From Spongospora subterranea f. sp. subterranea (lineage: Eukaryota), in assembly GCA_049724395.1 (NCBI GenBank), contig JAUGWO010000070.1, forward strand, positions 1 through 64,000: a stretch of DNA of 64,000 nt, in the 5' to 3' direction. The notes under the pieces were generated by a model. It saw only the letters and a list, made by a program, of their open reading frames with translations, searched no databases and was not told the origin of the DNA. Position numbers and translations under genes: made by a program. Below, one piece after another: positions 1 through 55,714 of the stretch (its first letter is position 1; the number at the start of each line of letters is the position of its first letter).

Positions 1-970
1 CTTATAATTGTTACCCCCCTTGACCTTCATGATCTTCATCATGCATTGCTGGAGAGTTAAAAGTGACCTTCATGATCTCCATACTGCATTGCTGGAGAGT
101 TAAAAGTGACCTTCATGATCTCCATACTGCATTGCTGGAGAGTTAAAAGTGACCTTCATGATCTCCATACTGCATTGCTGGAGAGTTAAAAGTGACCTTC
201 ATGATCTCCATACTGCATTGCTGGAGAGTTAAAAGTGACCTTCATGATCTCCATACTGCATTGCTGGAGAGTTAAAAGCATTTCTTTAAGCTTATCTTTC
301 TCCATGCTATCAAACGAGATCCTGACAGCCTTCACAAGATCATCGATTTTTTTTCGCTGCTGTAGAGGAATCTGTTTGACTTTTTCAGGATCAATGACTT
401 TTTCTTTGGTCCAACCTTTCCCTCGTTTGTGTGAACAACACAGGACGGCAGAAGTCCCAAATCCTACTCACAGTTCTGCGTGAATCGGCAAATTGACTGC
501 TTGCTGAGGCAATTGAATCAAGAACGAACCTTCCTGAACCACTCATCCTTAGAGACATATTCGTATATTACACGACTCTGGTCGTCAGTAAGGTTCTTTT
601 GTCCTTTTCTATCAGCAAACTTCTCAGGAACGATACGAATTCCGAGGGTTGCTGCTCGTCGGCTATTTTCTTTGGAAAAGCCGGCATGGCTTCTCCAGCT
701 CGGCTTAGGTCTCCTGCAGGTGCAGTCATGTTGTCAGGTGCTAGTTCAACAATGACGAGGTGGCGGTGCCGCTAAAAAATCTCCCGTAAACCCTAGTTTT
801 CATTTTGATCTAACTTTAGTTTGAAATGAGCGTCGAGGCTCAAAATTTCGGGAGAGCAAAGCACTTGACGCGCGCGTCATTATCCAGTTCTATGATATGA
901 GGTTGCGCATAAAACAACCTTAATCCACGCACGTTTTTCAAACAGGACCTTTATTTCCGAACAGAGGGAG
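1..970 (-). mobile_element. Internally deleted plant/oomycete-type mariner (DD39D/Stowaway-like), running off the window start
   Basis: Minus-strand terminus TA|CTCCCTCTGTTCGGAAATAA (970-951, TA at 971-972) matches the CTCCCTC(C/T)GT mariner/Stowaway TIR consensus. Minus-strand translation of ~440-1 gives ...DPEKVKQIPLQQR|KKIDDLVKAV...LTLQQC.MxIMKVKGGNNYK, i.e. N-terminal and C-terminal transposase segments joined without the catalytic core. Confidence 0.75.
22..278. repeat. 43-bp tandem repeat, 6 copies, inside the mariner transposase remnant
   Basis: Unit GACCTTCATGATCTCCATACTGCATTGCTGGAGAGTTAAAAGT starts at 22, 65, 108, 151, 194 and 237. Confidence 0.95.
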
Positions 971-980
971 TAGTAGACTA

Positions 981-3457
981 CAGTAGCGGACACCTTAACT
1001 CTGTAATTGTTGTGAGGGAGAAAAGTCCGTGGTTAATAGGCGCATCCCGTTATGAATAAATCAAACAAACGACACGGTAAATTGGCGTTCTCAATAATCT
1101 GAACCAGTCGCCGTTTCGTTTTTTCAAAAATGTTGAATTGTGACTGAGATATAAACTTCATAAGTTGATAGACAGCAGGACATTTTGAAACCTCTATGAG
1201 GAAAAACAAAAACCGACAAAAAGTTGCGCGCGCAGTTACATAAGTGCGCCGTGACGCAAAAATTACGTTTTGCGTCACGGTGCTGAAATCGGCGCACTTT
1301 CATTGAACAACTTTCGTCGACCACCTTGCCCGACTCTTTCACTGAAACTTTACGAATGGCTAGGCCAAAGAATAACACAGTAAATTGTCGAAAGCTCGCT
1401 GCTGCTTCCAAGCTTGCTGCTCTGATGAGGCGAACTAGCCAAAGCATTGAACCCGAATCCCAGGTCTGCGCTGCTGAACAGTCGGAAGATGAAATCATAA
1501 TCCTTGAAAATTCAAGCGAGAAGATGCAGCTTCCGGACTGGAGCTCATTAATATCCTGGAAAGAAGGTGCCGGCTCTCATTTGCGATCGTCGTACTCCAA
1601 ATACAGTCGGACGACACAATGGCGACGACGGCAAGAAAAGGAACGGCGTCATGAGGTGATCAAAGATTGTGTGAAAATTACCAAGTATTTCTCACCTGAT
1701 GAACCACCTCGTATTACGTCAGAGAGCAAGATTTGCGACGTTTTTGAAAAGCTGGAAGCATTAACCGAACTCCGTCCGAACCGCAACTTGGAACATCGCC
1801 ACAAAGACGTGACGCGGTGGGATTTTGTTCGATTGTTGTCGATCAAGCAATATTTAGCGGATTTGATGGCGAAGAAACCTAAAATTTTGTCATCGCAATT
1901 GCATCCCAGTTTTTCCCTGACCGCAACGTTGTTCACACTGGCCGCTTGATCCGACAATCTGCACTGTATTTTATTGACAAGGGAGAGTTGCCTGTTCTAA
2001 ATCAAGGCAAATTCGTCAAAATTCAATCTTTGATCAACGGACGAAGATGTTCAGCGAATAGTTAGGATTGGATTCATTGTGGTGCAGTCTCAGGTTGGGC
2101 TCACAAGCTCGACTCTGGTGCATTGGGTCAAGGAAAACCTTCATTTGGAACTGGGTTTTGATTCCCCAGTGTCTCTTTCTTCCAGGACGGGCCAACGGTG
2201 GTTGAATATAATGGGGCTTCGTTTTGGCAAGTTCTGTAAAGGGTTTTACAACGATGGTCATGAGCGACCTGATGTTATTCAATACCGCCAAAGATTTTTA
2301 GACCGAATGCTTTCATATGAAAGACGAATGACGTCATACGAAGGAGACTTCATGGAAAATGATGTCGCCCCGAAACTCAATGAAGGAGAACGGCCTCTGG
2401 TGCTGGTGACTCATGATGAATCCTGTTTTGGATCAAATGATGGACGTTCTTTTGTTTGGATAAACGAAGACAAGAGGGAGATTCGTCCTAAAGGTAACGG
2501 CAGAAGCCTGATGGTATCAGCATTTCTCTGTGAATGCCATGGTCTCCTGCGATTGTCGGATAGCCAGCAAGCCCTTAACCCTGGCGTCCCTCAGGATTCG
2601 ACTGTTTTCTTGAAACCTGGTGCAAACGCTGAAGGTTATTGGAGAAACTGTGACCTTGTTCAGCAGTTGAAAGAAAAGGCAATACCGATATTCCAGTTTC
2701 TGCATCCTGGTTGTGATGGAATCTTCATGTTTGACAATTCGCAAAACCATCATGGCAATTGCTCCAGACGCATTGTCTGTAAGCAAGATGAATATGAGCG
2801 ATGGAGGGCGAAATGCCAGAATCATGCGGTCTGGATGGTACATCGACAGCAACGGAGAGCGCATCGAACAGACCATGACGACTGAGAATGGACTCTCGAA
2901 GGGCCTCAAGCGTGTTCTATTGGAGAGAGGTTTGTGGATTCCTGGACTTTCAGTCCAAGAAGCCAAAAACCTATTGAAGGAGCAACCAGATTTAAAAAGC
3001 CAGATGGAATGGCTGCAAGAAACCGTAATTAACCAGGGATTATTCGTCGATTTCTATCCCAAGTATCACTGTGAGTTTAATTTTATTGAAATGTTTTGGG
3101 GTGCAGCCAAAGCGTTTTCAAGGGCTCGATGCACATTTCGTTTTGACGAATTAATTCAACTGGTTCCAGAAGCCCTCAAGAGTGTTTCTATAGGCAAAAT
3201 TAGGAAGTTCGCTCGTAAATCCTATCGGTACATGGACGCTTACCGCGTCACCGGACCGAACGGTAATTCTCTCAATCACAAGCAAATTGAGTTTGCAGTC
3301 AAACAGTACCGCGGTCATCGCAAGATTCCTCTGCGCATATTGCAAAACCTCGAATAAATCAGAATATTTTCAATTTTCCTCACGCACTATATAAAACTGC
3401 GCGCATTTTTCAGATTTGAGATTGAAACAAAGTACAGAGTTAAGGTGTCCGCTACTG
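981..3457 (+). mobile_element. Complete IS630/Tc1/mariner-superfamily DNA transposon with 25-bp TIRs and TA target duplication
   Basis: CAGTAGCGGACACCTTAACTCTGTA at 981-1005 and its exact reverse complement at 3433-3457; TA at 979-980 and 3458-3459. Confidence 0.92.
1356..3357 (+). pseudogene. Frameshifted DDE transposase of the 981-3457 element
   Basis: Three consecutive + ORFs (1326-1949, 2079-2885, 2713-3357) with motifs YNDGHERPDV, VTHDES, FMFDNS and FYPKYHCEFNFIE. Confidence 0.85.
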
Positions 3458-11833: not shown

Positions 11834-12412
11834 CAAGAAGCTTTCGCGAATCTATTCATATCCTGAGCAACTAGCCAGCTCTTACGCCTGGACGAAACGA
11901 GCAAAGACGGTCGCCGTTTCAACGAGGGAACAGAGTCTTCAACGAGGGAACAGAGTCTCTGTTTTCGCCGCGTTCGATACAAAGGGATTTTTCTCTTGGA
12001 AATGCACCGAAGGGACGTTCACTCGCCAGAAGTTCCATGATGCTTTCCTGGAAATGGTTGGTTCCGAAGTTGAATCCGTCACAGCTTTTCCAAGGAGCAT
12101 TGTTATCTTAGATAATGCACAGATCCATATGTATGGGAATTGGAACAGGTCATACACAGATCAGGAGCGAAACTCATGTTCCTGCCTCCTTATTCGCCAC
12201 AGTTGAACCCTATTGAGCAAGGTTTTGCACTTTTAAAGCAGTGGCTCAAGAAACATGCTGATCTGACGTTCAGGGTTTGCCCTGAGGCTGTTCTAAAAGT
12301 GGCTATGCCAATGTGTACGAAGAATCTAAGACATATTGGTCATAAATTTTACAATTCCTGTGGGTACGGTCACACTGAGCTAAATAAATCAATGTTTGGG
12401 GTCTATCTTTAA
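11834..12412 (+). pseudogene. C-terminal half of an IS630/Tc1-like DDE transposase
   Basis: RGNRVSVFAA, PRSIVILDNAQIH and FLPPYSPQLNPIE motifs; one frameshift near 12140. Confidence 0.85.
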
Positions 12413-12808
12413 TTTTCATCATCCGATAGGACATGATCGACGTCGTTAAGGTCTTGTCCAACAACTGCCGGAACGGGTTCGTCGGAATGAAATATATCGT
12501 TTCCGAACAACGGATATGGTGGCAAACCCAGGGCGGATCGAAGGCTTGCGATATTCACCTCCACAGTGACAAGTTCAGTCCTATTGACCCGCAAGACGAT
12601 TTGGGCGAATTCGTCCGCATCCTGATTTTCAAGTGAACTTCTGAGGTAGTCCAATCGCATCGCCTGCCGGAATGTGTTGCTGGCCGGCAATTGCTCGACT
12701 GGTTCAGGATTGACAGCTCGCGCCCTGGTCCTCGACCAAATATTCGTCGCTATCTCGCCAATTACGGCTCGATCAGGAAGACTGGGAGGGTTTGCCTGGA
12801 TGTTGCCA

Positions 12809-12920
12809 GACGGACCCTGCCTATGGTCGCCCTTCGCAAACCAGAAGGGTTTGTTGATCCCGAAGACGGACCCTGCCTATGGTCGCCCTTCGCAAACCAG
12901 AAGGGTTTGTTGATCCCGAA
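12809..12920. repeat. 56-bp direct duplication
   Basis: GACGGACCCTGCCTATGG...GATCCCGAA at 12809 and 12865. Confidence 0.9.
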
Positions 12921-13233
12921 TTTCTTACAGACGCCTGTTCGGAAATAAAAACGACCAGTGGAATAAGAATTTGGCGACAATCGCTGACGAATCACTGATT
13001 GTGCATATACGCGTCGAACAGTCACGTCGAAATTGTCTTCAGAAAGGTCGATGAACCTGCTTTGGGGTGCTTGGACAGCAGGTTTGATTTCAGTTTGATT
13101 TCATCAGGAACACTCGACCTAGGAAGAGTGTGTTCGTAAGTGGCAAACAATGATGGCGTGCAGAACGCAAAATCCAAGTGACAGAGTCCATTGAATACTA
13201 TCAGTTTCTGCAGCAGCATGATGGTGCCGTCTG

Positions 13234-15324
13234 CAACAATCAAATCGATCTCAAAGAAGTAGCAAAGGACATTAAAACCAGATGCAAATTAATGAGAGGG
13301 CTACGAAAATATGGAATTCCAGTTTCGACCTTTCAAAAAATATGTCGAGGATTCATAGGCGGAAAACTCAATTACTACCTGCCATGGCTTGCAGCGGAAA
13401 TACACCAAACCATGAAGACCACTCTGAACCCGATGGAAATTGCATATAGAGACTATATGAGAACATTATACAGGATGTTTCCCATCGACACCAATCCCAT
13501 TATTACATGCGATATCACGATTCCCATTATTAAAGGATAGAATAATCACAGAGACAACAATGACAGTACTTTCAGCACAGGCAAATGGCACATTATTAGG
13601 AAGTGAATATGCTGCCTGGAATGGAGATGGCGATGGATGGACCCCATTAGGGGAGGTATGGAAAGCACTCAAAGAGAGAGTACCTGACACATATGATGCA
13701 GTTCATACTAGGACTGATATACCAGCACGAATATTGGAGGGATTATATAAGGTCAAATACCATTCCTCAAATAGGGAAAAAGCAATCAAAAAACACAAAA
13801 AAGGAAAGCTATTGCCGACAAACCCAGATATCGAACTATGGACAGATGGGAGTTTTAATAAGGATGTTGGCGGAGGAGCGGCAGCTCTGCTAATTGATTA
13901 TACAAATAGAGATGAAAAAGGCGAGACCAACGAAGAGATACTTACCGTTAAACTAGGAACAGAAGTGACATCATCATATGAATGTGAGATTATTGCACTG
14001 AATAGTGGACTAGATATAGCTGTAGACCAGAACTATGAGGGAAGACATATCCACATAATGACAGATTCCTTATCATGGATGAGTCAACTACAATCCTTAC
14101 CGATAAAACCAAGGAGAGTGAACGCTATCGTTGCGGAATGTGCAGATAAATTAGCGAAATTAACAAAAGAAAACATGGTGGATATACACTTTATACCAAA
14201 TCACGTGGAAAACGACAACAATAATGAAGACGAGATGAAAGTCCCCATAGGACACAGCGATGACATTGATCAACTAGCAAAGCAAGCATCGATGGACGGC
14301 GATGAAATTCAACATGACCCATTTATATCATCGTTCAAACTGCATCTTAAGAAAAGAGAGAGAGAAAACCTTAAAGATTACATCAAAGAACGAGTTCAAG
14401 CTAGCAGATTCAAAGGATACCCAGAAAGGGATAAATTTAAGATATTAATGACGCTAAACGAAAGGAAGATTGAACCTACAACCCCGCTTCTCAACAGAGC
14501 AAGAACTGGGCACTCTTGTGCAAGAAATCACCTGAAGAACCTGAATATGGATGACAGTAACATATGCAGATGGTGTAATACGGAAATAGAGACGATTGAA
14601 CATCAGGTGTTACACTGCAAGGCGTTACAAGGAAAGTTGAGTAAAGTCAGGAAAGTGTACAAAGGTTTGAACACCTCATCATTTGAAAATGCACTGTGGG
14701 AATACCCGCAAGAAATGAACAGGATCCTAAGAAGGGCAGTGAAAAAGAGGTGCTACATCTAGAACCACAGGAACCCGAATCCGAATACACGAGCAGAAAA
14801 TGCACTGTGGGAATACCCGCAAGAAATGAACAGGATCCTAAGAAGGGCAGACGGCGATCGAGACAGTGAGAGAGAGGAGGCAGCCTAGATAAATATTTTC
14901 CGAAGAGGAGTAAAACCTCGATAAAAAATCAGCTACCTAACCGTAGCGAAGAGGTGCTACCTCTCTAAATACAGGCCGAAGAGGAGGACAACCTCTATGC
15001 AAAAACCGAGCTGTCTAGTAAGGATGCGACCTGGTTAGGCCAAAGGGTGTTCCTTAGGGAATTTTTAGTGTCCCGGATACAGAGTTTTCCGGGTACGTTT
15101 TTTAGTTGGGACGGTTCAATATGTAGGACTATTCTAACCCCACACTACCCTTTGCGTCGACCAAAATGCTGAACTACCGGCGAAGGTCTATTTATCGGGT
15201 GCGAGCCTGATACTGGGAGGAGCTTCTGAGACGCGAGTCGAAGAAACGAATCTTGGCCCAATAGCCGTGGGACCGGCCGACCTGCATGAAAAGTGCAAAC
15301 TCAATCACAAAAAAAAAAAAAAAA
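13234..15324 (+). mobile_element. 3' part of the LINE (RNase H, C-terminal Zn finger, 3' UTR, poly-A); inverted duplicate of 25795-27890
   Basis: WTDGS RNase H motif, CRWC...HQVLHC, poly-A at 15309-15324 followed by the same flank (CACGAACTACTG) as the mirror copy. Confidence 0.92.
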
Positions 15325-16430
15325 CACGAACTACTGCTTTTGTCCGTTTGGGCTGATTCTTCATTGCTTTTTCATAAATGTCCTGCAATGGTAAAATCAA
15401 TTTGTTATTCTCTGGAATCGACCTATTCATCCATTGTATAGCCATCATGAATTGCTGCAAATCCCTAGCCGTTTTCGGATGTGGCATTTTATTGAGAGCC
15501 GATATCCTCCCTGGATCATGACTGACTCCATCTGGTGTGAAGATGCGGCCACAGAATTTGGCTTCCCTCAAGAACAAATCACATCGTTTAACATTGAACT
15601 TGATGTTTTTTTGTTCCGCCAATCTCAATGTCCCCTGCAGTGCTTCAAACCATTTGTCCTCAGTTTCCGCATGACCTAAAATATCGTCAATCCCGATGAT
15701 TAACGACTTGTACAGTAATTCCTCAAATATTTCATGCATCCTAGCCTGAGACTGAGTAGATGAAATCAATGCTCCTTAAATCGAACGTGTTGGAATGTAA
15801 ACTCCACGATCGGTCATGAATGAACTCATCTCCTGACACTCCTGGTCAAGTGGCATAATCCAAAATCCCTTGAACGCATCTAATGAAAACCAATACTTAG
15901 ACCCTGCTAAGTATCTAACAATGGATTCCAAGAATGGCATTGGCCATGCTGTGGCCTTGCATAATGCATTGACTTCCCTGAGATCAACACACATTCTGTA
16001 TCCTCGTTTCCCTGGTTTTCTGACAACTACCACCGGCGAAGCCCACTCCGCATTGTAGTTCTCATACACCAATCCATATTTGACCAACAACTTAACAAAA
16101 GTGTCAGAAATTCATTCTGTTCTGTGTTGTATCTCCTAGCTTTGCACCTGACTGGTTCCACATTATCCTTCAAGCATGTCTTGAAAGGTGTCACCTTAGC
16201 TGGTTCATCATTACCTAATGATGCCCTCCACACATTACCGTATGTATGGACCAATTTCCTTAGTCGACTTTCTCAATGATGTGGTAATCCATTTTGTATA
16301 GCGCGCTCAACCAAACCATTCATTGCACCTCGCAATTCCTCTGGAATATTTTCCCTAATATTCACATCCTCATCAGAAACTTCCAGATCCTAATTTCCCA
16401 ATCTTGTCCTCAAGATTAAATGCTCTAGGG
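15325..16430 (-). mobile_element. Gypsy pol (RT) fragment, mirror copy of 24690-25794
   Basis: WASPVVVVRK, YRMCVDLR, SLDAFKGFW and GIDDILG motifs. Confidence 0.9.
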
Positions 16431-16473
16431 CTGTTTTTCTAAACGGTGGCAAGGTGGCTGGCCGTCACGGACC

Positions 16474-16533
16474 ATACCAACTGAACGAGGCGTTAATATT
16501 ACAACGCCTCGTTGGTATATTGGTACTTGGTAT
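16474..16533 (+). promoter_or_regulatory. Rolling-circle replication origin: stem-loop with nonanucleotide TAATATTAC and flanking iterons
   Basis: AACGAGGCGT(16484-16493)-TAATATTAC(16494-16502)-A-ACGCCTCGTT(16504-16513). TTGGTAY at 16512, 16520 and 16527; inverted copy ATACCAA at 16474. Confidence 0.88.
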
Positions 16534-16773
16534 CCACGCAGTTTGTCCCAGAGGTACTGTACCAACGGACCGAACGCCTCGTCGGTATATAGGTACTTGG
16601 TATCCACGCAGTTTGTCACAGAGGTACCAACGGACCGATGGTGGGTACCATTTGACCGGCGGTACCAACCGACCGACGCGTGGGCCGCGCCGACTGTTAT
16701 GCGACGGACTGCGCGTCACACTGCGGCTATCATAATCGTTTTGGTGGTGGGCGTTTCGCGTCGTCGTTTGGAG

Positions 16774-16871
16774 ATGCCGAGAAGGAAAGGGCCGCCTTCA
16801 GCCACAACCGGCGTTACGGCGGAGCTCGGCAGGTTGGGCTCCGATTCGCAGAAGCGAACACGCGGCCGCCG
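16774..16871 (+). pseudogene. rep: Rep 5' fragment, variant A (MPRRKGPPSATTGVTAELGRLGSDSQKR)
   Basis: Homologous to the N-terminus of variants B and C and lies downstream of the intact origin. Further copies occur near 17060-17165(-), 18600-18935 and 23955-24345. Confidence 0.7.
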
Positions 16872-17400
16872 TCACAGAGGTACCAACGGACCGATGGTGG
16901 GTACCATCTGACCTGCGGTACCAACCGACCGGCGCGTCCCAAAACGATTATGATAGCCGCAGTGTGACGCGCAGTCCGTCACATAACAGTCAGCGCGGCC
17001 CGCGCCGATCGATTGGTACCGCCGGTCAGATGGTACCCACCATCGGTCCGTTGGTACCTCTGTGACGGCGGCCGCGTGTTCGCTTCTGCGAATCGGAGCC
17101 CAACCTGCCGAGCTCCGCCGTAACGCCGGTTGTGGCTGAAGGCGGCCCTTTCCTTCTCGGCATCTCCAAACGACGACGCGAAACGCAACGCCTCGTTGGT
17201 ACATTGGTACTTGGTATGCGGCCACGGAGTTGTCACAGAGGTACCAACGTACCAACTGACCGGTTCCGGGTACCAACCCACCGGGCTACCTACCGACAGG
17301 TGCGCAGCCCACACCGAGTCTTAAGTCACGGACTGCTCGTCACAACTTTCATTATCATATTGGTCGTGCCGTTATCGTTCGTATTCGTGCTGCTGCTGGG

Positions 17401-17835
17401 ATGCGACATAGGAAGGGGCAGGGTCCACGATCGGCGACCACAGGTGTCACAGCTGAGATCGCGCGGTTGGGGTCTGGCTCCCGCCAGCGGCGCGGCGCCA
17501 ACCGCCGACGCAAACCGCCAGCCGCCCCTCGATCCCGGTTCATTGATGACGAAGCCGGTTGCTCTTCGGAATCGACAGACGAAGCTACTCTATCGGAAGG
17601 CGGCAATGGAGTGGCATCGGGTACCGCCGATACGTTAAATGCCCCAGCAATCGCACCCGCCGATCCAGATACGTATATTCCGGCGGTTCTGTCGCCCGAG
17701 GATCAACTCACGCTCGAAGCGATGACCAGGCAGCCGACCCATGGGTTCGTATTCCGCGGCACCCATCTATTTGCAACATGGCCGCAGTGTACCACTCAAC
17801 CGTCGTAAGTACCAACCGACCGTACCCCAGGTACC
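17401..17835 (+). pseudogene. rep: Rep 5' fragment, variant B (exon 1 with motif I, and the start of the intron)
   Basis: 135-aa ORF ending GFVFRGTHLFATWPQCTTQPS, followed by a GTAAGT donor. Confidence 0.8.
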
Positions 17836-18381
17836 GTCACGATGATTCTCCTGTTTGACAACGGCTGCGCTCAACGTCATCGGGAAACAGTTTCCAAAGT
17901 TGGTCGATGACGAAACTGTGGCAACGAATTAGGGTCTCGCTCGGTTGGTACCTGGGGTACGGTCGGTTGGTACTTACGACGGTTGAGTGGTACACTGCGG
18001 CCATGTTGCAAATAGATGGGTGCCGCGGAATACGAACCCATGGGTCGGCTGCCTGGTCATCGCTTCGAGCGTGAGTTGATCCTCGGGCGACAGAACCGCC
18101 GGAATATACGTATCTGGATCGGCGGGTGCGATTGCTGGGGCATTTAACGTATCGGCGGTACCCGATGCCACTCCATTGCCGCCTTCCGATAGAGTAGCTT
18201 CGTCTGTCGATTCCGAAGAGCAACCGGCTTCGTCATCAATGAACCGGGATCGAGGGGCGGCTGGCGGTTTGCGTCGGCGGTTGGCGCCGCGCCGCTGGCG
18301 GGAGCCAGACCCCAACCGCGCGATCTCAGCTGTGACACCTGTGGTCGCCGATCGTGGACCCTGCCCCTTCCTATGTCGCAT
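17830..18381 (-). pseudogene. rep: Longest Rep fragment, variant B: exon 1, 62-nt intron (17977-17916), exon 2 up to ...ENHRDGT
   Basis: GTAAGT donor, CTAAT branch point (17932-17928) and CAG acceptor. Spliced product is LFATWPQCTTQPSFVIDQLWKLFPDDVE / (frameshift) AAVVKQENHRDGT, aligning with geminivirus Rep FLTYPQC...ELHEDGxPHLH. Confidence 0.82.
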
Positions 18382-19201
18382 CCCAGCAGCAGCACGAATA
18401 CGAACGATAACGGCACGACCAATATGATAATGAAAGTTGTGACGAGCAGTCCGTGACTTAAGACTCGGTGTGGGCTGCGCACCTGTCGGTAGGTAGCCCG
18501 GTGGGTTGGTACCCGGAACCGGTCAGTTGGTACGTTGGTACCTCTGTGACAACTCCGTGGCCGCATACCAAGTACCAATGTACCAACGAGGCGTTGTCGG
18601 CAGGTTGGGCTCCGATTCGCAGAAGCGAACACGCGGCCGCCGTCACAGAGGTACCAACGGACCGATGGTGGGTACCATCTGACCTGCGGTACCAACCGAC
18701 CGGCGCGTCCCAAAACGATTATGATAGCCGCAGTGTGACGCGTAGTCCGTCACATAACAGTCAGCGCGGCCCGCGCCGATCGATTGGTACCGCCGGTCAG
18801 ATGGTACCCACCATCGGTCCGTTGGTACCTCTGTGACGGCGGCCGCGTGTTCGCTTCTGCGAATCGGAGCCCAACCTGCCGAGCTCCGCCGTAACGCCGG
18901 TTGTGGCTGAAGGCGGCCCTTTCCTTCTCGGCATCTCCAAACGACGACGCGAAACGCCCAACGATTATGATAGCCGCAGTGTGACGCGCAGTCCGTCACA
19001 TAACAGTCGGCGCGGCCCACGCGTCGGTCGGTTGGTACCGCCGGTCAAATGGTACCCACCATCGGTCCGTTGGTACCTCTGTGACAAACTGCGTGGATAC
19101 CAAGTACCTATATACCGACGAGGCGTTCGGTCCGTTGGCACAGTACCTCTGGGACAAACTGCGTGGATACCATGTACCAATATACCAACGAGGCGTTGTA
19201 A

Positions 19202-19854
19202 GGTCCACCATCGGCGACAACAGGTGTGACCGAGGAGATCGCGCGGTTGGGGTCTGCCTCCCGCCAGCGCCGCCGTGGTAACCGCCGACGCAAACCGCCA
19301 GCCAAATGTCGATCCCGCTTCATTGACGACGAAGCCGGCTGCTCTTCCGATTCGGCAGACGACGCTACGATTTCGGACGCCGACAATGTTTTGGGATCGG
19401 GTACCGGCGAATCGCTAACTGCCCCTGTAATCGCACCCGCCGATCCAGATAAATATATTCCCGCGGTTCTGTCGCCCGAAGATCAACTGACGCTGGAAGC
19501 GATGACCAGGCAACCGGTCCATCATCGGGAAACAGTTTCCAGAGTTCGTCGATGACGAAACTGTGGCAACAAATTAGTGTACCGTTCGGTTGGTACCTTG
19601 GTAACGGTCGGTTGGTACTTTTTAAGCGAATCGGCGGTACCCGATGCCAATCCATTGTCGCCGTCCGATATAGTAGCGTCGTCTGCCGAATCGGAAGAGC
19701 AGCCGGCTTCGTCGTCAATGAAGCGGGATCGACATTTGGCTGGCGGTTTGCGTCGGCGGTTACCGCGGCGGCGCTGGCGGGAGGCAGACCCCAACCGCGC
19801 GATCTCCTCGGTCACACCTGTTGTCGCCGATGGTGGACCCTTTCTGCGTCGCAT
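19202..19854. pseudogene. rep: Rep 5' fragments, variant C, in two opposite orientations (19202-19520 +, 19523-19854 -); mirror copy at 23037-23370 +
   Basis: MRRRKGPPSATTGVTEEIARLGSASRQRRRGNRRRKPPAKCRSRFIDDEAGC..., plus a diverged copy of the intron 3' end and exon 2 (SFVIDELWKLFPDD). Confidence 0.75.
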
Positions 19855-19975
19855 CTCACCGGCGGCACGAACACAAACGACGACGGCACGACCAATATGA
19901 TTATGGAAGCTGTGACGAGCAGTCCGTGACATAAGACTTGGGGTGGGCCGCGCACCAGTGGGTTGGTACCCCGGT

Positions 19976-21575
19976 TGTTGAATACAACTTGCCAGCCTCC
20001 AGTACGGACATTCTCCAAGAAAGGTGCGTACCCCAGTCGGCGCAACCACGGCAAATGCATAACATAAGAGTGACTGTGCGGACTTTGTATTTGGATTATG
20101 CCGTGCACTCCCCCCTATATTCTCCCACCTATACATGCTATAACCACGCAGTAATAAACCTCATTCTACTATTACCTTCACATCGGAGACATCGATTTCC
20201 TTTAGATTAACAGTCGAATTGCCACCTCATCAGGCCCTTACGTATACACTTCAGTGTATCTTCTCACCACTGCACACATACACCTCAGTGTATATTTCTA
20301 CCAGCTTGTACATACACCTTAGTGTATCTTTTTCACCACTGCATACATACACCTCAGTGTATATTTCTACCAGTTCATACGTACACTTTAGTGTATATTT
20401 CTCGTTATTCCCACACTTTCTCTTCTCCGCACCTCTACTTCAACTTCAGTTGCGATGAAAGAAATTTTTCAGACGATTCCAAAGTTCTCCGGCAAAGACA
20501 CCGATGACCTGTTACTATGGCAACAAAAGGTAGTGATGTATCTATCGACAAAGGATCTGGAATTATGCGTTGAGAAAGACCCTGATGCTAACGCGACTCC
20601 GGACCAACTACGCAAAGACAAGAAAGCTAAGTCCATTTTATGCAGCTGCATTGATGACGTGATTGTCGGCGCAATAATGAAGGAAACAACGGCACGCAAG
20701 GCGTGGGCGCGCTTCTTGAAAGCCTTTACCGCAAGAAATCACGATCCACCAGAACCAGACTCATCGCCGAGTTTTGGAACTGCACAAAGAATGACGCCCC
20801 GATGGCCACTTACATTGCCACCCTTCAAGTTTTACAGTCAAAGCTCCGCGCTATCGGAAAGGATATGACAGATGAAGACATGACTGATCGCCTACTATCA
20901 GGCCTCCCATCTTGTTTTGACGCATTCACCGTCACGTTGGATACACTCAGCGAAGTCAAGTTTGCCGCTACTGCCGCGTCGCTCATCAATTTTGAAGCCC
21001 AACTCGAGCACAGGTCTCGTGAAGATGTCGGCAGTTTCCATCCTGCCTCGAGCATGCGCTACCTCAGTCAAACGGCATTCTCGCTGCAGCTATCACAACT
21101 CCAACTCGCATGACAATGCCCACTGCTGGGCACAACATCCCGAGCTACGTCCGAAACATTTATTCACTAAACAGTCTGCCTCAGTCTATCCCCTCCAACG
21201 ATCAAAAGTAGCTCCACTCTCCCAACAATCAGCTCATGAACACAGTGACGAATGGCTTCTTGACTGTTGCTGCTCAATGCACATGTGTCCGAATCCTCTA
21301 CCTTGCAGGAAGTTCTGCCCGACTCCGATCCCGTGACAGTTACTATGGCAAATAATGAGAGTCTTTGCTCAACTGCAACCGGCAGCAGCAAATGCAACCG
21401 GCAGCAGCAAAATAGGCACTGGAAATACCATCATCGATATTTCACCGGTATTACACATACCCGGTCTTTCCAATAATCTTCTCTCCATTGGACAAGCAAC
21501 TTCGGACGGACTATCGTTTTTGTTCAAGGGAGACTACTGCAAAATATTCAACATCGACGGTAAACTTGTCGGCAA
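19976..21575 (+). mobile_element. Copia element 2, 5' part (LTR, leader, gag, zinc knuckle, protease), truncated
   Basis: Candidate LTR TGTTG...TTAACA at 19976-20212 with AATAAA; tandemly repetitive leader ~20240-20400; gag from 20455, CSYHNSNSHDNAHC knuckle, WLLDCCCSMHM protease, LSNNLLSIGQ. Confidence 0.85.
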
Positions 21576-22915
21576 AGGTAGAGGATTCGGGACACATGTG
21601 CATTGAGCAGCAACAGTCAAGAAGCCATTCGTCACTGTGTTCATGAGCTGATTGTTGGGAGAGTGGAGCTACTTTTGATCGTTGGAGGGGATAGACTGAG
21701 GCAGACTGTTTAGTGAATAAATGTTTCGGACGTAGCTCGGGATGTTGTGCCCAGCAGTGGGCATTGTCATGCGAGTTGGAGTTGTGATAGCTGCAGCGAG
21801 AATGCCGTTTGACTGAGGTAGCGCATGCTCGAGGCAGGATGGAAACTGCCGACACTTCACGAGACCTGTGCTCGAGTTGGGCTTCAAAATTGATGAGCGA
21901 CGCGGCAGTAGCGGCAAACTTGACTTCGCTGAGTGTATCCAACGTGACGGTGAATGCGTCAAAACAAGATGGGAGGCCTGATAGTAGGCGATCAGTCATG
22001 TCTTCATCTGTCATATCCTTTCCGATAGCGCGGAGCTTTGACTGTAAAACTTGAAGGGTGGCAATGTAAGTGGCCATCGGGGCGTCATTCTTTGTGCAGT
22101 TCCAAAACTCGGCGATGAGTCTGGTTCTGGTGGATCGTGATTTCTTGCGGTAAAGGCTTTCAAGAAGCGCCCACGCCTTGTGTGCCGTTGTTTCCTTCAT
22201 TATTGCGCCGACAATCACGTCATCAATGCAGCTGCATAAAATGGACTTAGCTTTCTTGTCTTTGCGTAGTTGGTCCGGAGTCGCGTTAGCATCAGGGTCT
22301 TTCTCAACGCATAATTCCAGATCCTTTGTCGATAGATACATCACTACCTTTTGTTGCCATAGTAACAGGTCATCGGTGTCTTTGCCGGAGAACTTTGGAA
22401 TCGTCTGAAAAATTTCTTTCATCGCAACTGAAGTTGAAGTAGAGGTGCGGAGAAGAGAAAGTGTGGGAATAACGAGAAATGTACACTAAAGTGTACGTAT
22501 GAACTGGTAGAAAATATACACTGAGGTGTATGTATGCAGTGGTGAAAAAGATACACTAAGGTGTATGTACAAGCTGGTAGAAATATACACTGAGGTGTAT
22601 GTGTGCAGTGGTGAGAAGATACACTGAAGTGTATACGTAGGGGCCTGATGAGGTGGCAATTCGACTGTTAATCTAAAGGAAATCGATGTCTCCGATGTGA
22701 AGGTAATAGTAGAATGAGGTTTATTACTGCGTGGTTATAGCATGTATAGGTGGGAGAATAGTATAGGGGGGAGTGCACTAATAATCCAAATGACAAGCCG
22801 GTTGCTCTTCGCACAGTCACTCTTATGTTATGCATTTGCCGTGGTTGCGCCGACTGGGGGTACGCACCTTTCTTGGAGAATGTCCGTACTGGAGGCTGGC
22901 AAGTTGTATTCAACA
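21576..22915 (-). mobile_element. Fold-back (inverted) copy of Copia element 2
   Basis: Mirror of 19976-21304; gag ORF 21511-22422(-); LTR at 22666-22915. Confidence 0.88.
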
Positions 22916-23371
22916 ACCGGGGTACCAACCCACTGGTGCGCGGCCCACCCCAAGTCTTATGTCACGGACTGCTCGTCACAGCTTCCATAATCATATTGGT
23001 CGTGCCGTCGTCGTTTGTGTTCGTGCCGCCGGTGAGATGCGACGCAGAAAGGGTCCACCATCGGCGACAACAGGTGTGACCGAGGAGATCGCGCGGTTGG
23101 GGTCTGCCTCCCGCCAGCGCCGCCGCGGTAACCGCCGACGCAAACCGCCAGCCAAATGTCGATCCCGCTTCATTGACGACGAAGCCGGCTGCTCTTCCGA
23201 TTCGGCAGAGCGACGCTACTATATCGGACGGCGACAATGGATTGGATCGGGTACCGCCGATTCGCTTAAAAAGTACCAACCGACCGTTACCAAGGTACCA
23301 ACCGAACGGTACACTAATTTGTTGCCACAGTTTCGTCATCGACGAACTCTGGAAACTGTTTCCCGATGATG

Positions 23372-23712
23372 TGACCGGCTGCCTGGTCATCGCTTCGAGC
23401 GTCAGTTGATCCTCGGGCGACAGAACCGCCGGAATATACGTATCTGGATCGGCGGGTGCGATTGCTGGGGCATTTAACGATATCGGCGGTACCCGATGCC
23501 ACTCCATTGCCGGCGTCCGATAGAGTAGCGTCGTCTGTCGATTCCGAAGAGCAACCGGCTTCGTCATCAATGAACCGGGATCGAGGGGCGGCTGGCGGTT
23601 TGCGTCGGCGGTTGGCGCGGCGCCGCTGGCGGGAGCCAGACCCCAACCGCGCGATCTCAGCTGTGACACCTGTGGTCGCCGATCGTGGACCCTGCCCCTT
23701 CCTATGTCGCAT
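23372..23712 (-). pseudogene. rep: Rep 5' fragment, variant B, third copy (truncated before motif I)
   Basis: MRHRKGQGPRSATTG...FIDDEAGC...LEAMTRQP, with one frameshift. Confidence 0.72.
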
Positions 23713-24585
23713 CCCAGCAGCAGCACGAATACGAACGATAACGGCACGACCAATATGATAATGAAAGTTGTGACGAGCAGTCCGTGACTTAAGACTCGGT
23801 GTGGGCTGCGCACCTGATCGGTAGGTAGCCCGGTGGGCGGTACCCGGAACCGGTCAGTTGGCGTTGGTACCGCTGTGACAACTCCGTGGCCGACATACCA
23901 AGTCACAATGTACCATCGAATCGTTGCGTTGGGCGTTTCGCGTCGTCGTTTGGAGATGCCGAGAAGGAAAGGGCCGCCTTCAGCCACAACCGGCGTTACG
24001 GCGGAGCTCGGCAGGTTGGGCTCCGATTCGCAGAAGCGAACACGCGGCCGCCGTCACAGAGGTACCAACGGACCGATGGTGGGTACCATCTGACCGGCGG
24101 TACCAATCGATCGGCGCGGGCCGCGCTGACTGTTATGTGACGGACTACGCGTCACACTGCGGCTATCATAATCGTTTTGGGACGCGCCGGTCGGTTGGTA
24201 CCGCAGGTCAGATGGTACCCACCATCGGTCCGTTGGTACCTCTGTGACGGCGGCCGCGTGTTCGCTTCTGCGAATCGGAGCCCAACCTGCCGAGCTCCGC
24301 CGTAACGCCGGTTGTGGCTGAAGGCGGCCCTTTCCTTCTCGGCATCTCCAAACGACGACGCGAAACGCCCACCACCAAAACGATTATGATAGCCGCAGTG
24401 TGACGCGCAGTCCGTCGCATAACAGTCGGCGCGGCCCACGCGTCGGTCGGTTGGTACCGCCGGTCAAATGGTACCCACCATCGGTCCGTTGGTACCTCTG
24501 TGACAAACTGCGTGGATACCAAGTACCTATATACCGACGAGGCGTTCGGTCCGTTGGTACAGTACCTCTGGGACAAACTGCGTGG

Positions 24586-24645
24586 ATACCAAGTACCAAT
24601 ATACCAACGAGGCGTTGTAATATTAACGCCTCGTTCAGTTGGTAT
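24586..24645 (-). promoter_or_regulatory. Second (mirror) copy of the TAATATTAC origin hairpin
   Basis: Stem-loop at 24606-24635; nonamer on the minus strand at 24625-24617. Confidence 0.88.
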
Positions 24646-27600: not shown

Positions 27601-30600
27601 GGAATCGTGATATCGCATGTAATAATGGGATTGGTGTCGATGGGAAACATCCTGTATATGTTCTCATATAGTCTCTATATGCAATTTCCATCGGGTTCAG
27701 AGTGGTCTTCATGGTTTGGTGTATTTCCGCTGCAAGCCATGGCAGGTAGTAATTGAGTTTTCCGCCTATGAATCCTCGACATATTTTTTGAAAGGTCGAA
27801 ACTGGAATTCCATATTTTCGTAGCCCTCTCATTAATTTGCATCTGGTTTTAATGTCCTTTGCTACTTCTTTGAGATCGATTTGATTGTTGAGTGGTGATT
27901 CTCATCATTTGCTCTTAAGGTTGCCCCTAAATACTTGATTGTGTCTGTTGTTTTGATTTTATGCTCGTTGACAGTTATTTGGTCTCTATGAGCATGTTCA
28001 TTGAATAATAAGTGGGTTTTCAGCCATTGTATCTTAATGTGGTTTGCTGTGCACCAGCTTTGCAGCTTTGAACTCTCTGCCCTCAGTTGATTTTTTACTT
28101 CCCATTTGGTTGAATCTGTTGCCCATTGTGTGGTATCATCTACATAAACATTACTATTGACCGTTTCTATTGGTGCATCGTAGATATATATAATCCATAA
28201 TAAGACGCTAATACTGGATCCTTGAGGGATTCCGTTCTCTTGATAATGCGGCTCTGTAATATTTTTCCTGTGGCACACGTGGAATATTCGCTTTGTCAAC
28301 CATTGGTCGATCAATAATATTAGGTATGAGTCTATTCCCATATTTCTCATCTTTCGTACTAGTAGTGTTCTCTGTACTCTGTCAAAGGCTTTCATAAAGT
28401 CATATACAATTAGGGCGAATTGTTGTTCTTTAGCAGCTGCTAATCCTGCATTATGCAGCAATCTTAACAATGCATGCGTAGTACTATGAGCGGGTCTGCA
28501 CCCGAATTGGTTATCAGGTATGTGCTTTTCCGCTTGGTGTCTTATTCTGTGTTCAATAATCCCTTCTACCAGTTTGGCTATATTAGGCAATAATGATATC
28601 GGTCTATATTCACCTGGTTTATCTTTAGGTAATGGTCTGATTTTCGCTATTTTCATATCTTGTGGGAAGTATCCTAAATCTATAATATCGTTATTAATTG
28701 AATTCAGCAACGCGTATTTGTTCATATCATTTTTGCATAATTCTTTGATGAGACTATTCGGTATTCCATCAATTCCTCCTGCTGATTTCCTATTGGCCTT
28801 AACAACTGCCCTTTCTAGCTCTCTCAAAGTAATCTTTTCCGGTGGTTGAGAGATTCTCTCTTTCCATAGTTTTTCAATGAGTAGATCGGAACCGCTGTTC
28901 ACGCTGTTCATGCTCATTGAGGTTAAGGTCTGCTTCGCTGTAGATTGCCTCAAAACTGTCAGCTATTTTTTCCGCTTCATCTTTTGCATCAACTTTCTGT
29001 GTTTCGTACTTTCGTCTCCGTTTGTTGGTTTGAGGACTTATCTTCTTTACCAGGCTCCATATTTTGGCTCCTGTTTCGTCCATACATGCCTGTTTAACTT
29101 CCGTTCTAAGGCTTGCATTTTTCGCTTTCTGAAATTGTTTCCTCAATGATATTTCCGCTTTTCGCATTTCGGTGTGCTGCCGTGCAATAAATTGCTGGCT
29201 TTTGCATTTCAGTATGGCTTCCTGGTGTTTGCGCTTGAGTTTATTTCGCAAGTTTAACGCAATTTTGAGTTTCGTGGTCCAGAATTTGCATCTATTCTGT
29301 CTAACATATTTGTGCTTAATGCTATTTTGCAATAGGTCAATGAAAGCTGTTAGTCCCATGTTCTTGCTTTCAACATTCTGCAGTTCCTCTTCTAACGCTT
29401 TCGTTGTCGCTCGTGTGTCAATTCGTTGTATTCTTTTACGGCTAGGGGGAATCCTTTGCGTCGATTTTCTTCTAATTGTAGTATCTATTGTTGTCGGTGA
29501 ATGGTCACTGCCTAGCTCTGCGTGCACGTCCCATTGTAAGATCTCCTTTGCCATCTGTCGATTGGCAATGGTGATATCTAATGAGTTGTTTCCTCTTGTT
29601 GGGCGTTCCGGGTTGTTCATCAATTTGCATTCTTCCAATATGCTGTCTAGGTATTTGTGAGTTTCGTCATGGTGGATTCCAAACCGTCTATCTTTGGTGT
29701 TGAGGTCACCTGTTAGAAGTATCGGTTCATCTCGCATTTCTACGAATTTGCCGATTTGTTTCCAATATGTTTTTCTAGTATTTCGATCTATATCCGGTGG
29801 TATATATATGTGAATTAATATCATTTCACTATATATTTTTACTATTTGTGTCATGATTCCGTCGTTCCCAAACGTTTGTATTGCAGGAATGCGCATCACA
29901 TCTACATTTACATGGTCCCTCCAAAAAATTCCAGCTTGGGTGTACCGGTCATCGGCTTCGTGGTTTGGGAAATCGTCTATTTGGCGTCTATGGTGAAGTT
30001 CTGATATACATATTACATCGACGCGGTTGGTGTTAGCAAATCGAGACAGTTCTTTTGATTTTTGTTCGCTTAGGGAGCAGGCGTTCCATTGAGCGATTTT
30101 TAAGCTCCTGGTTGTTCTTATTTTTCTGGTTTTGGTATTGGTTTTCATGAAATATTGAGTTATTTTCATCTGCCGTTTGTGTGTTTTAGTTCCGTTCAGG
30201 TTTTTGTCCGATGTGTCTGCTATATTGTCTTCCTTGTTGTCTGGTTCTAGTATATTTCCGATCAATTTGTTGAGTTCGTAGTGGCTCATCTGGCTTGTTG
30301 GTGTCTGTTTTGAGGCTGTTTTTCGCGCTGTTTCATTGTCTGCAACTTCTTTGCATTGGCGCTCGCTGTTGGTAAGCCGTCTTTTATACTGCGTTTCAGT
30401 GCCGTCCTTATCTATCAGCAATGTTCGCTTTTTTGTGCAGATTTGTTTAGAGTGCGTTTGATGTTTTTCATATTTGGCACGTTGAGTGGGTTGGTCGTCG
30501 GAATCGTCGCATGATCGGTGCCTTTTCGGATTTATGTTTTTATCGTGTCTCATCGTTTTGTCTAGCGATGGTTTTATCATAAATTGCTGTTTGGAATTAT

Positions 30601-35750: not shown

Positions 35751-37390
35751 GCAATGAAGTTCAGTAAAAGTTTATGGTTTCAGATGGAAGGGTGAAGAAA
35801 CCACCAGACGTACTCACTCGACAGCAACTCGAAGCATCTTGTCATCGAATCATATCTTATGACATCGTGAACAAAAGGTGCACCTTTCCTGCAAACTGTT
35901 TATGCCGAGTGTCGTTTCTCAAACACTTCGGTTAGACGCATTCTGCTAAACAATATACAGAACAATGACAAACTGCTCCTTGTGTGTTAACACATAGTGA
36001 TTATATAAATCTTCCCATTAAATGCCATTTCAAATGCGGAGAACGCAGCACCAGCCACTCGGAAGAACTTCAAAACCGGCGCTCGTTGGTAGCCATTCTT
36101 ACAATTATTTGTCATGATTGAGGTCTGGAGGGCAGTTTTATTCACCAGCGAGCAAATGGCACCTTGTCTTTGCTGTCCAGAAACGCGTCCTTCAATATTT
36201 GCTTGTGCTCCATTGAACAGGGTCGACCTCCCTTGCTCCTTTGGCTCGTTTCTTGCAGGCGACTATAGCCCTGACCGGTGTTATAAAACGGCTTGTAAAA
36301 CCCCTGATCGACAAGCTGCAATATGCCATGAAGATGGCTCACTCACATTATTTAACCTAAGGTAGACATTGTCATAACACTGCCCAAAACACTTGCACAA
36401 CCGGACTTGCTTTGAACCTCTGTTCTCCTTACCTGAATATGTCTTTGTGCTATATGAGATGCCCCATTTAGAAATATAATTACACTTAAACAGCCTCAAT
36501 GCCAGTTAGAAAGCGGCCATGTCCAGCTGGCGCCAAATTAGGGTATTTTGGCGTCTTGCGATCAGGCCTTGTAATGTGAAGCATATTGAGAGTTTGCGAT
36601 ATTGTGGATTGGCGGTCGTCAAGTTTCTACAAATGACACGGTTTTAGGGTAATACCTGATTACGTCCCTTGGTTCGGGTAGTGCTGTCGTTGAATAGTCT
36701 TTGCCCATGTTCAGCGTCTGTAGGGTGATCATGATTCTGTGGGATACTGAAATGGTGACGAGTGATACGTTTGTACGTGGTCGGGATCTAAACCCTTTAT
36801 AATGTGTCGACGACCTTACAACAACCGACACCTGCTATATTATCAGCCTTTATTAACGGTTAGGGGTATTACAGTCCGGGTCCGATAGTTAATATTGTGA
36901 TATGCTGTAGAGGGTGATCCATGAGACCTGGAATACCATCGGGATGAGTTATGGCCATGAGACAATCAGGTCGGTATCTGACCAGGAATAAGGCATATGA
37001 TGGGACGGCACCCTCCATAATTACATGCCAATGGTCACCGTCTTCACTATCGGGTTGAAGGAACCGCAAGTAGAGGAATGACAGGGTCACGCTCGCTACA
37101 ATAAACCTGGCCGATATTCTGAAACCTCGAGACCATAAATGACTTTCGCCTTACAATGCATTGCCAGTGACGCCTTTGATCGGCACCAAACCGAAAAGGA
37201 ATCCGGCCAGGAGACTAAAAAATTGCCTGGGCCAGTGCAGGGCATTGGACAGCTCCTCCTGAGAGGAAAGAGCAATTAGCGGCGAGCTGGAGACGTGGTA
37301 AGACGCTGTGCCTGCGTCCATGATTGGCCGGATTTGGTTGCCTTGTTCCATAGGATGGCAGACATCGGATCGGGAAGGCGGCGACCAAGA

Positions 37391-55680: not shown

Positions 55681-55714
55681 CCGTCAGGGGGATCGATCTG
55701 GAAACACGTGCGCG

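What the first reader, a model, noticed from the sequence alone, without database searches (positions are those of the whole stretch)
16484..16513. Perfect stem-loop with the geminivirus nonanucleotide TAATATTAC
A 10-11-bp perfect stem (AACGAGGCGT/ACGCCTCGTT) encloses TAATATTAC exactly, and the AC after the canonical nick site abuts the right arm, as in geminivirus origins. It is one of very few AT-rich spots in a GC-rich block. A mirror copy lies at 24606-24635.
Basis: partly seen in the sequence, partly recalled or inferred. Interest (0 to 1): 0.9.

Follow-up and report, generated by a model that had tools for sequence, protein, structure and literature searches.

The report
Viral rolling-circle origin fossilised in protist
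A DNA hairpin carrying the geminivirus-type replication-start motif sits just upstream of broken copies of a virus-like replication (Rep) gene in the genome of a eukaryotic microbe, likely a root-parasitic protist, and several copies are joined to other DNA within two bases of the spot where such enzymes cut, a likely fossil footprint of that cutting and rejoining.

Summary
The hairpin is real: an 11-bp stem around TAATATTAC, about 1e-6 by chance. It heads a 3.6-kb tangle (16439-20034) of three related, broken copies of a small CRESS-DNA-virus-like unit inserted in a gypsy retrotransposon. The unit is origin, GTACCAAC repeats (35 in the window, 1.2 expected), then a Rep gene with motif I, a 62-nt GT-AG intron and the start of motif II. 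The only real homolog among 1.84 billion proteins is a Spongospora subterranea Gemini_AL1-like Rep. Two circular 2.7-kb viruses with related Reps carry TAATATTAC hairpins. All three foreign joints of the origin's right arm in the window, and two further flanks in public runs, fall within 2 nt of the canonical T^AC nick. Best reading: an integrated, defective concatemer of a geminivirus-like (not geminivirus) replicon in a likely plasmodiophorid, its junctions likely made by Rep nicking. Rep reads on the nonamer strand, unlike in the two viruses; no motif III, helicase or capsid was found. The mirror copy is part of a 20-kb inverted duplication and is not independent.

The parts
16439..16483 (+). 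Left flank of the origin (45 nt); holds a lower-stem / repeat-like segment; joined to gypsy DNA at 16438
   Evidence: In X1, X2, X3 and X9 the multi-copy gypsy matches end at 16438, with other continuing letters listed for X2, X3 and X9; extended fold
16484..16513 (+). Origin hairpin, 11-bp stem, TAATATTAC at 16494-16502; canonical nick between 16500 and 16501 (nick position recalled from geminivirus knowledge)
16514..16773 (+). Common region of copy A with GTACCAAC/TTGGTAC repeats (likely iterons) and a 70-nt tandem duplication that restarts at the right stem arm (16573)
   Evidence: 35 GTACCAAC in the window, all in 16559-24560, 1.24 expected
16774..16870 (+). Copy A Rep N-terminus, broken after about 32 codons, then a jump back to the repeat array and a fold-back (16871-17185)
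   Evidence: a loose end in X1 at 16873 shows a copy that goes on differently
17186..17835 (+). Folded-back arm of copy B; starts at the origin base equivalent to 16502 (nick +2); ORF 17401-17805 ends just after motif I (FATWPQC)
   Evidence: (I4); held whole by one X1 contig
17828..18597 (-). Copy B in native orientation: starts at the base equivalent to 16501 (nick +1); ATG 18381; motif I; intron; exon 2 up to the start of motif II; ends in a snap-back at a GGTACC
   Evidence: tblastn of P0121 residues 10-146 to 18273-17827, E 6e-18
17916..17977 (-). Predicted 62-nt spliceosomal intron (GTAAGT ... CTAAT ... CAG) between Rep motifs I and II; contains GTACCAAC repeats
   Evidence: P0121 lacks this insertion (20-residue gap in the alignment)
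17828..17915 (-). Rep exon 2 fragment (…KQENHRDGT), with a frame break near 17867; truncated before the HUH histidines
   Evidence: X1 and X2 differ from the window at this place (table 4), so the break may be an assembly error
18597..19201 (-). Second, inverted and folded copy of A; starts at the base equivalent to 16499 (nick -2), joined to copy C
   Evidence: the same joint is in X1 and X2 contigs
19202..19975 (.). Copy C (about 84% identical to B): Rep 5' part, intron/exon-2 piece, internal deletion and snap-back; no origin of its own
   Evidence: its joints are in X1 and X2, one of them also in X7
15305..16438 (-). Host gypsy-type pol fragment interrupted by the element
   Evidence: RT-like translation of the mirror arm; high contig depth
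24606..24635 (-). Mirror of the hairpin inside the 10481-30718 inverted duplication; not independent

Best explanation
The hairpin is likely the rolling-circle origin of a small geminivirus-like (CRESS-DNA) replicon whose broken, folded-back copies lie integrated in the genome of a protist, likely a plasmodiophorid, and the foreign joints of these copies, which sit within two bases of T^AC, were likely made by Rep nicking there. Shown: hairpin and nonamer, repeats, Rep fragments on the same strand, junction positions, and the same local joints in independent sequencing runs. Inferred: Rep bound the GTACCAAC repeats, cut TAATATT^AC and stayed on the 5' AC end. Aberrant replication then gave snap-back and deleted molecules by template switching at short inverted repeats such as GGTACC. 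Either Rep joined AC ends to non-cognate 3' ends, or new strands ran off the nicked template end and switched template over 1-2 nt of microhomology. The resulting concatemer of at least three related variants (A, B, C) was captured in the chromosome inside a gypsy element. The copies in the window cannot make a working Rep.
For: (1) Hairpin plus nonamer at about 1e-6 chance. (2) Of 2 hits among 1.84e9 representatives, P0121 (46% over 65 aa, E 4e-9) has Rep motifs I, II (HLH) and III (YLLK) and a Gemini_AL1 match (E 2.5e-4, 21.4 bits, under the 24-bit cut-off). Its source names it Spongospora subterranea CRZ00739.1. The other hit, P0122, is a repetitive bacterial-type protein and was dropped. 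P0121's low-confidence model (mean pLDDT 48, 60-78 over the Rep domain) matches TYLCSV/TYLCV and other HUH Rep domains best in PDB and CRESS Reps in BFVD and the Atlas. (3) Copy B, read with X at its two breaks, aligns to P0121 at 41% over 138 columns (E 8e-30) and to both viral Reps (E 5e-7, 4e-6). (4) 2 of 55 IMG/VR motif loci (L009, L030) are circular 2.7-kb viruses (121-nt terminal repeat) with Gemini_AL1 Rep, SF3-type helicase, Gemini_coat-like capsid and TAATATTAC in a hairpin. (5) 3 of 3 foreign joints of the right arm in the window start at the equivalents of 16499, 16501 and 16502. In four runs, 3 of 4 distinct 5' flanks listed within 16439-16935 start at 16499-16500, one being the window's own 19201 joint; the fourth starts at 16619 (binomial 4e-6 for a 5-nt window). 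(6) Local fold-back joints recur in contigs of X1 and X2 (two studies) and one in X7, so they are real DNA. (7) The origin is a recombination hot spot, and geminivirus sub-genomic DNAs keep the origins while carrying inversions (PMC3187698, passages and section 9).
Against: No nicking was shown. Motif III, helicase and capsid were not found in the window, and the window's own ORF has no Pfam hit. Rep lies on the nonamer strand, whereas in L009 and L030 it lies on the opposite strand. One of four flanks in the runs (16619) is far from the nick, and most internal joints (16870, 16937, 17835, 19521, 19625) are not at the origin. The two ends of snap-back copy B may be one event. Junctions carry 1-2 nt of microhomology, and the whole 8-nt loop is a possible target for host hairpin-cleaving nucleases. 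No free circular relative closer than about 36% Rep identity to P0121 was found. The host assignment is inferred only.
Confidence: 0.6

Rival explanations
1. The unit is a Rep-mobilised rolling-circle transposon or integrative plasmid descended from a geminivirus-like virus. It kept the viral origin as its 5' end, lost the capsid, gained an intron and inserts by Rep strand transfer of the AC end, often after a T.
For: Origin and Rep lie on one strand, unlike in the related viruses. At least three paralogs about 70-85% alike are in the window, with more variants as loose ends. Different runs show different flanks before T^AC; a 17-nt piece of the X3 flank and a 20-nt piece of the X1/X2 flank have no match in the window, and the X3 flank is AT-rich. 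There is a spliceosomal intron and a relative in Spongospora.
Against: All three foreign flanks in the window are element DNA, not host DNA, and the X1/X2 flank carries a GGTACC repeat-like word. The only host junction in the window keeps the whole hairpin plus 45 nt upstream, not a nick-site end. No 3' terminus, empty site or complete copy was seen. Geminivirus relatives also have introns in Rep (recalled).
Confidence: 0.22
2. A passive endogenous viral fragment, rearranged after or during integration by host repair. Hairpin-loop cleavage and replication slippage put breaks in the loop without any Rep activity.
For: The region is full of microhomology snap-backs that also hit non-viral DNA (copia fold-back at the centre of the 20-kb palindrome, and 53866-55686). 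The junctions lie in or at the loop. Endogenous CRESS Rep fragments are common and mostly degraded (PMC3198968, passages).
Against: The starts fall at 16499-16502, the 3' half of the loop centred on the canonical nick, with none at 16495-16498. Copies joined to foreign DNA lack the left arm and so no longer form the hairpin.
Confidence: 0.13
3. A chance hairpin in a repeat family, or an amplification or assembly chimera.
For: The window holds a 20-kb near-perfect palindrome whose right arm has clustered small indels over the B and C copies (15 indels in about 1.15 kb), which looks like collapsed assembly.
Against: The conjunction probability is about 1e-6. The Rep homology is independent of the hairpin. 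Local joints are present in short-read contigs of two studies. The left flank is not a simple mirror of the right arm.
Confidence: 0.03
4. A fragment of a true plant geminivirus picked up from a host plant.
For: Exact TAATATTAC; best PDB matches of P0121 are begomovirus Rep domains; one holder is a rhizosphere library.
Against: Rep is on the nonamer strand with a long N-terminal extension and an intron between motifs I and II. P0121 scores under the Gemini_AL1 cut-off and aligns better to unclassified CRESS viruses.
Confidence: 0.02

Closest known systems
Endogenous CRESS-DNA viral elements (Liu et al. 2011, PMC3198968; Polymyxa betae draupnirvirus-like Rep elements in Kinsella et al. 2023, PMC10193959; geminivirus-related DNA repeats in Nicotiana, as summarised in PMC3187698)
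   Same: Integrated, degraded Rep sequence in a eukaryote genome, sometimes inside transposons or in several copies; already reported for one plasmodiophorid.
   Different: Here the origin hairpin and repeats are kept and junctions map to the nick site. The Rep is geminivirus-like, not the circovirus-side Draupnirviridae type, and carries an intron between motifs I and II.
Spongospora subterranea CRZ00739.1 (P0121), auto-annotated Gemini AL1 domain protein
   Same: Same Rep clade: colinear from the N-terminal extension through motif II (41% identity).
   Different: P0121 has a whole endonuclease domain and lacks the intron insertion. Its C-terminal third does not align with the viral helicases, and its DNA context could not be fetched.
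Unclassified circular viruses L009 and L030 (IMG/VR), geminivirus-like Rep and capsid (the combination described for CRESSV6 in PMC6668415; family not tested)
   Same: FATWPQC motif I, N-terminal extension, TAATATTAC hairpin with an extended lower stem.
   Different: They are ambisense (Rep opposite the nonamer), have helicase and capsid, no intron and no GTACCAAC repeats.
Geminivirus defective (sub-genomic) DNAs
   Same: Keep the origin; carry deletions, duplications and inversions; breakpoints at the origin (PMC3187698).
   Different: Those are episomal and encapsidated in plants; this one is chromosomal in a likely protist and mixes three divergent variants.
Replitrons (Craig 2023, PMC10288648) and Helitrons
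   Same: Eukaryotic elements with an HUH Rep; one precise end tied to Rep action.
   Different: Replitrons have SUTU / HUQ / GYxxK motifs and short direct terminal repeats, and none were found in Rhizaria. P0121 has FATW / HLH / YLLK and no Replitron or Helitron Pfam match. I saw no viral nonanucleotide origin described for Replitrons in the parts read.

Membership tests
CRESS-DNA (Cressdnaviricota)-derived endogenous element | Nonanucleotide in a stem-loop origin | tested here: met
CRESS-DNA (Cressdnaviricota)-derived endogenous element | HUH Rep motifs I, II, III | tested here: inconclusive
   Window: motif I and the lead-in to motif II only; all three in the homolog P0121
CRESS-DNA (Cressdnaviricota)-derived endogenous element | Fused SF3 helicase | tested here: inconclusive
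   Not in the window (profile search; the gene is truncated); not aligned in P0121; present in L009 and L030
CRESS-DNA (Cressdnaviricota)-derived endogenous element | Capsid gene | tested here: inconclusive
   No capsid Pfam hit among 54 window ORFs scanned; the rest of the genome is not held
CRESS-DNA (Cressdnaviricota)-derived endogenous element | Integrated in host DNA | tested here: met
   Flanked by gypsy, LINE and copia DNA in a contig with host genes; local joints in two studies
Geminiviridae | TAATATTAC origin | tested here: met
Geminiviridae | Rep on the complementary strand (recalled feature) | tested here: not met
   Rep reads on the nonamer strand, 216-273 nt after the nick
Geminiviridae | Rep inside the geminivirus clade | not tested
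   No named reference set was available; P0121 is under the Gemini_AL1 cut-off
Geminiviridae | Plant host, geminate capsid, movement protein | tested here: inconclusive
   None found in the window; the host DNA is protist-like
Replitrons | SUTU / HUQ / GYxxK motifs and Replitron Pfam domains | tested here: not met
   P0121 FATW / HLH / YLLK; no Replitron model among matches to E 1 (definition)
Replitrons | Short direct terminal repeats, dispersed multicopy insertions | not testable with these tools
   No 3' end in the window; no genome held
Helitrons | Y2 Rep fused to SF1B helicase | tested here: not met
   P0121 has a single-Tyr motif III and no Helitron Pfam match
Defective / sub-genomic rolling-circle DNA | Origin retained with deletions and inversions | tested here: met
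Defective / sub-genomic rolling-circle DNA | Trans-replication by a helper Rep | not testable with these tools
   Needs an experiment

The most novel reading that the evidence does not exclude
A family of rolling-circle mobile elements in plasmodiophorid root parasites, derived from a geminivirus-like virus independently of Helitrons and Replitrons. It still uses the viral TAATATTAC hairpin as its transposition start, has an intron-bearing sense-strand Rep, and makes isolate-specific insertions by Rep strand transfer at T^AC. It would be a virus-to-transposon transition caught with the viral origin intact, in an organism that lives inside plant cells.
Probability: 0.22. Interest if true: 0.85.

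Novelty: new variant of a known kind. Interest (0 to 1): 0.6.

Why it matters
Most CRESS-DNA viruses have no known host. An integrated origin plus Rep ties a geminivirus-like lineage to a likely plasmodiophorid, protists that live inside plant roots, which bears on where geminivirus-type replicons circulate outside plants and fungi. The junction cluster is an in-genome record of where the Rep likely cut, and gives a direct test of whether CRESS Reps drive their own integration, as proposed without junction evidence in the passages read of PMC3198968. If the transposon reading holds, it is a further independent origin of HUH transposons from viruses.

Tried and rejected
Exact origin patterns: 0 hits in viral contigs and 0 in metagenome contigs. 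The window ORF found no relative in viral contigs (22 candidates) or among longer proteins (1096 candidates). P0121 found none in viral contigs (8 candidates), only itself in the word-indexed protein search (422 candidates), and none in plasmids. Alignment scans of viral contigs returned only L009 (=L056) and L030. The 4 metagenome loci L057-L060 (of 57 candidates) are chance: motif only, stops nearby, no nonamer. Of 19 loci with the L009 stem-plus-nonamer word, one is L009; the other 18 gave no Rep match to P0121. P0122 was rejected as a repeat-driven hit. No tRNA in the window and no Rfam match in 16300-20300. I first considered an LTR end plus primer-binding site for the left flank; dropped because gypsy matches in the runs end at 16438 inside pol. 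None of the four runs laid on 16250-16935 covers 16439-16498, so the intact hairpin with its left flank is so far seen only in the window; a hole in filtered contigs proves nothing either way. Contig depths in X1 fit the left cluster alone slightly better than a doubled one, but depth is no copy number, so whether the 20-kb palindrome is real is unresolved. RNA-labelled runs hold pieces (X3, X7) but do not show transcription. The host species was not pinned down: ARPC2 gave no close named relative. Three look-ups of earlier findings returned nothing. Ten literature searches found no paper on a geminivirus-like Rep element or origin in Spongospora or other plasmodiophorids. The library lacks most subscription papers, and supplementary tables of endogenous-virus surveys that I did not open may list it.

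Full report
Observation. The sequence at 16484-16513 is AACGAGGCGTT AATATTAC AACGCCTCGTT: an 11-bp perfect stem folding at -12 kcal/mol (z -6.3) with TAATATTAC at 16494-16502. The nonamer alone is not rare (0.33 expected per window; 7 of 100 shuffles give two), nor are stems of 10 bp or more (5 loci against 0-3 in 12 simulations), but both together come to about 1e-6. The mirror at 24606-24635 lies in a near-perfect inverted duplication spanning 10481-30718 and centred in a copia gene. The arms holding the hairpin differ by one base in 1877, so the mirror is not a second origin.

Setting. The window is eukaryotic, with gypsy, copia, LINE and DDE fragments, a GlcNAc transferase, ARPC2, a TPR-HSP70, Sec1 and a helicase, at about 45% GC. 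No genome is held. The stretch 16484-17940 is held in whole or part by 13 of 14 listed runs from 6 studies; I laid 5 of them. One is a rhizosphere poly(A) library with a 190-nt identical piece. With the homolog below, I infer a plasmodiophorid host (about 75%); this is not shown.

Anatomy. The gypsy element is interrupted at 16438. From 16439 to about 20034 lies a 59% GC tangle of three related units, A, B and C. Each has a common region with the word GTACCAAC (35 copies, all in 16559-24560, 1.24 expected), followed by an ATG and a basic, then acidic N-terminus. Copy B is the most complete and is native on the minus strand. It starts at 18597 with the AC of the nonamer and has its ATG at 18381, then motif I (FVFRGTHLFATWPQC), a 62-nt GTAAGT...CTAAT...CAG intron at 17977-17916, and an exon ending in KQENHRDGT, where the strand snaps back at a GGTACC and retraces itself to 17186. 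A breaks after about 32 codons; C (84% identical to B) is deleted and folded. A profile of the Rep alignment finds only these N-terminal pieces in the window.

These rearrangements are real DNA. Contigs of X1 and X2 (two studies) carry the A-to-C joint and both C joints, X7 carries one C joint, and X1 and X2 contigs bridge the 17835 fold. The right arm of the big palindrome, in contrast, has clustered indels over B and C and lacks 17737-19500; whether the 20-kb duplication is real is unresolved.

What the gene is. HMMER over 1.84 billion representatives gave two hits. P0121 is a Spongospora subterranea protein with motifs FATWPKC, HLH and YLLK and a sub-threshold Gemini_AL1 match. Its nearest solved sequences and structures are geminivirus and other HUH Rep domains (model of low overall confidence), and its nearest predicted structures are Reps of unclassified CRESS viruses. 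It aligns colinearly with copy B, with a gap where the intron sits. Copy B read with X at its breaks matches P0121 at 41% over 138 columns, E 8e-30. A motif I scan of IMG/VR gave 55 loci, of which two (L009, L030) are circular 2.7-kb viruses with related Rep, helicase, geminivirus-like capsid and TAATATTAC hairpins with a bulged lower stem, as the window's can also form. In both, Rep lies opposite the nonamer; in the window it lies on the same strand.

The junctions. The canonical nick (recalled) is TAATATT^AC, between 16500 and 16501. In the window, the three copies of the right arm joined to foreign DNA begin at the equivalents of 16499, 16501 and 16502; an internal 70-nt duplication restarts at 16503. 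In runs X1, X2, X3 and X9, four distinct 5' flanks are listed inside 16439-16935 (one loose end was not shown). One at 16499 is the window's own joint, two new ones are at 16500 (X1 plus X2; X3), and one is at 16619, away from the nick. Three of four in a 5-nt window has binomial P 4e-6. That treats flanks as independent and positions as uniform, which a hairpin loop is not. Other joints in the cluster are not at the origin.

Mechanism. Shown: origin-like hairpin, repeats, Rep fragments, junction positions. Inferred: Rep bound the repeats, nicked at T^AC and stayed on the AC end; aberrant replication produced snap-back and deleted molecules; AC ends were joined to non-cognate ends by Rep or by template switching at the run-off end; and the concatemer integrated in a gypsy element (0.6). 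Origins are recombination hot spots, and sub-genomic geminivirus DNAs keep origins while carrying inversions (PMC3187698; passages and section 9 read). Rival: a capsid-less Rep transposon or plasmid (0.22), favoured by the same-strand layout, several paralogs and run-specific flanks, disfavoured because the window's foreign flanks are all element DNA and its one host junction keeps the whole hairpin. Rival: a passive fragment broken in the loop by host enzymes (0.13). Chance or artefact 0.03; true plant geminivirus 0.02.

Comparison. It works like a geminivirus/CRESS origin but fails Geminiviridae on Rep orientation, and fails Replitrons and Helitrons on motifs (PMC10288648, parts 1-5 of 7 read). 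Endogenous CRESS Reps are known in many eukaryotes (PMC3198968, passages) and, of another family, in Polymyxa betae (PMC10193959, passages and a supplement search). CRESSV6 shares capsid type and Rep clade with geminiviruses (PMC6668415, passages) and is a candidate home for L009 and L030, untested. Ten searches (listed under Tried and rejected) found no report of this element; the library is incomplete.

Verdict. Observation confirmed; interpretation partly supported. A new variant of a known kind: an endogenous geminivirus-like origin plus intron-bearing sense-strand Rep, with junctions at the nick site. Interest 0.6; 0.85 if it proves to be a mobile Rep transposon family (probability 0.22).

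Noticed in passing
window 10481-30718: A 20-kb near-perfect inverted duplication centred on a copia pol snap-back with a 299-nt spacer (21291-21589). The arms differ at 11839-13234 (includes a DDE_3 fragment) versus 27890-29361 (LINE RT), and the right arm lacks 17737-19500. Real duplication or assembly turn-around is unresolved.
   Followed up: partly
window 1249-1280: Perfect 13-bp hairpin with loop ATTACG just upstream of ORFs 1287-3357 that look transposase-like by eye but have no Pfam match; shares the word CCGTGAC with the origin's left flank read on the minus strand.
   Followed up: no
window 53866-55686: Local palindrome (arms about 385 nt) around ORF 54481-55218 (-), which resembles retrotransposon hot spot (RHS)-like proteins in the Atlas (score 0.97, PF07999 on 17% of members). 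A GPPGVGKS Walker A lies just upstream near 55200.
   Followed up: partly
window 45369-47579: Single ORF fusing N-terminal TPR repeats to a full HSP70.
   Followed up: no
window 21-321, 37300-39330, 48774-53100, 55700-57330: Tandem arrays with units of 43, 87/145, 50 and 55/56 nt; the 50-nt array has strong GC skew (0.76).
   Followed up: no
run X1, loose end at 16873; X1/X2 loose ends at 16694, X1 at 16770, X2 at 16619: Further variants of the element exist outside the window, including a copy of type A that goes on past the window's break.
   Followed up: no
L009 1-2687 and L030 1-2654: Two complete-looking circular CRESS genomes whose Reps have a non-canonical motif II (HRH) and a long N-terminal extension, with STNV/geminivirus-like capsids; family not determined.
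   Followed up: partly
window 41698-43296: GlcNAc transferase (PF11397) of the protist Skp1-modifying type (label recalled), apparently with short in-frame introns.
   Followed up: no
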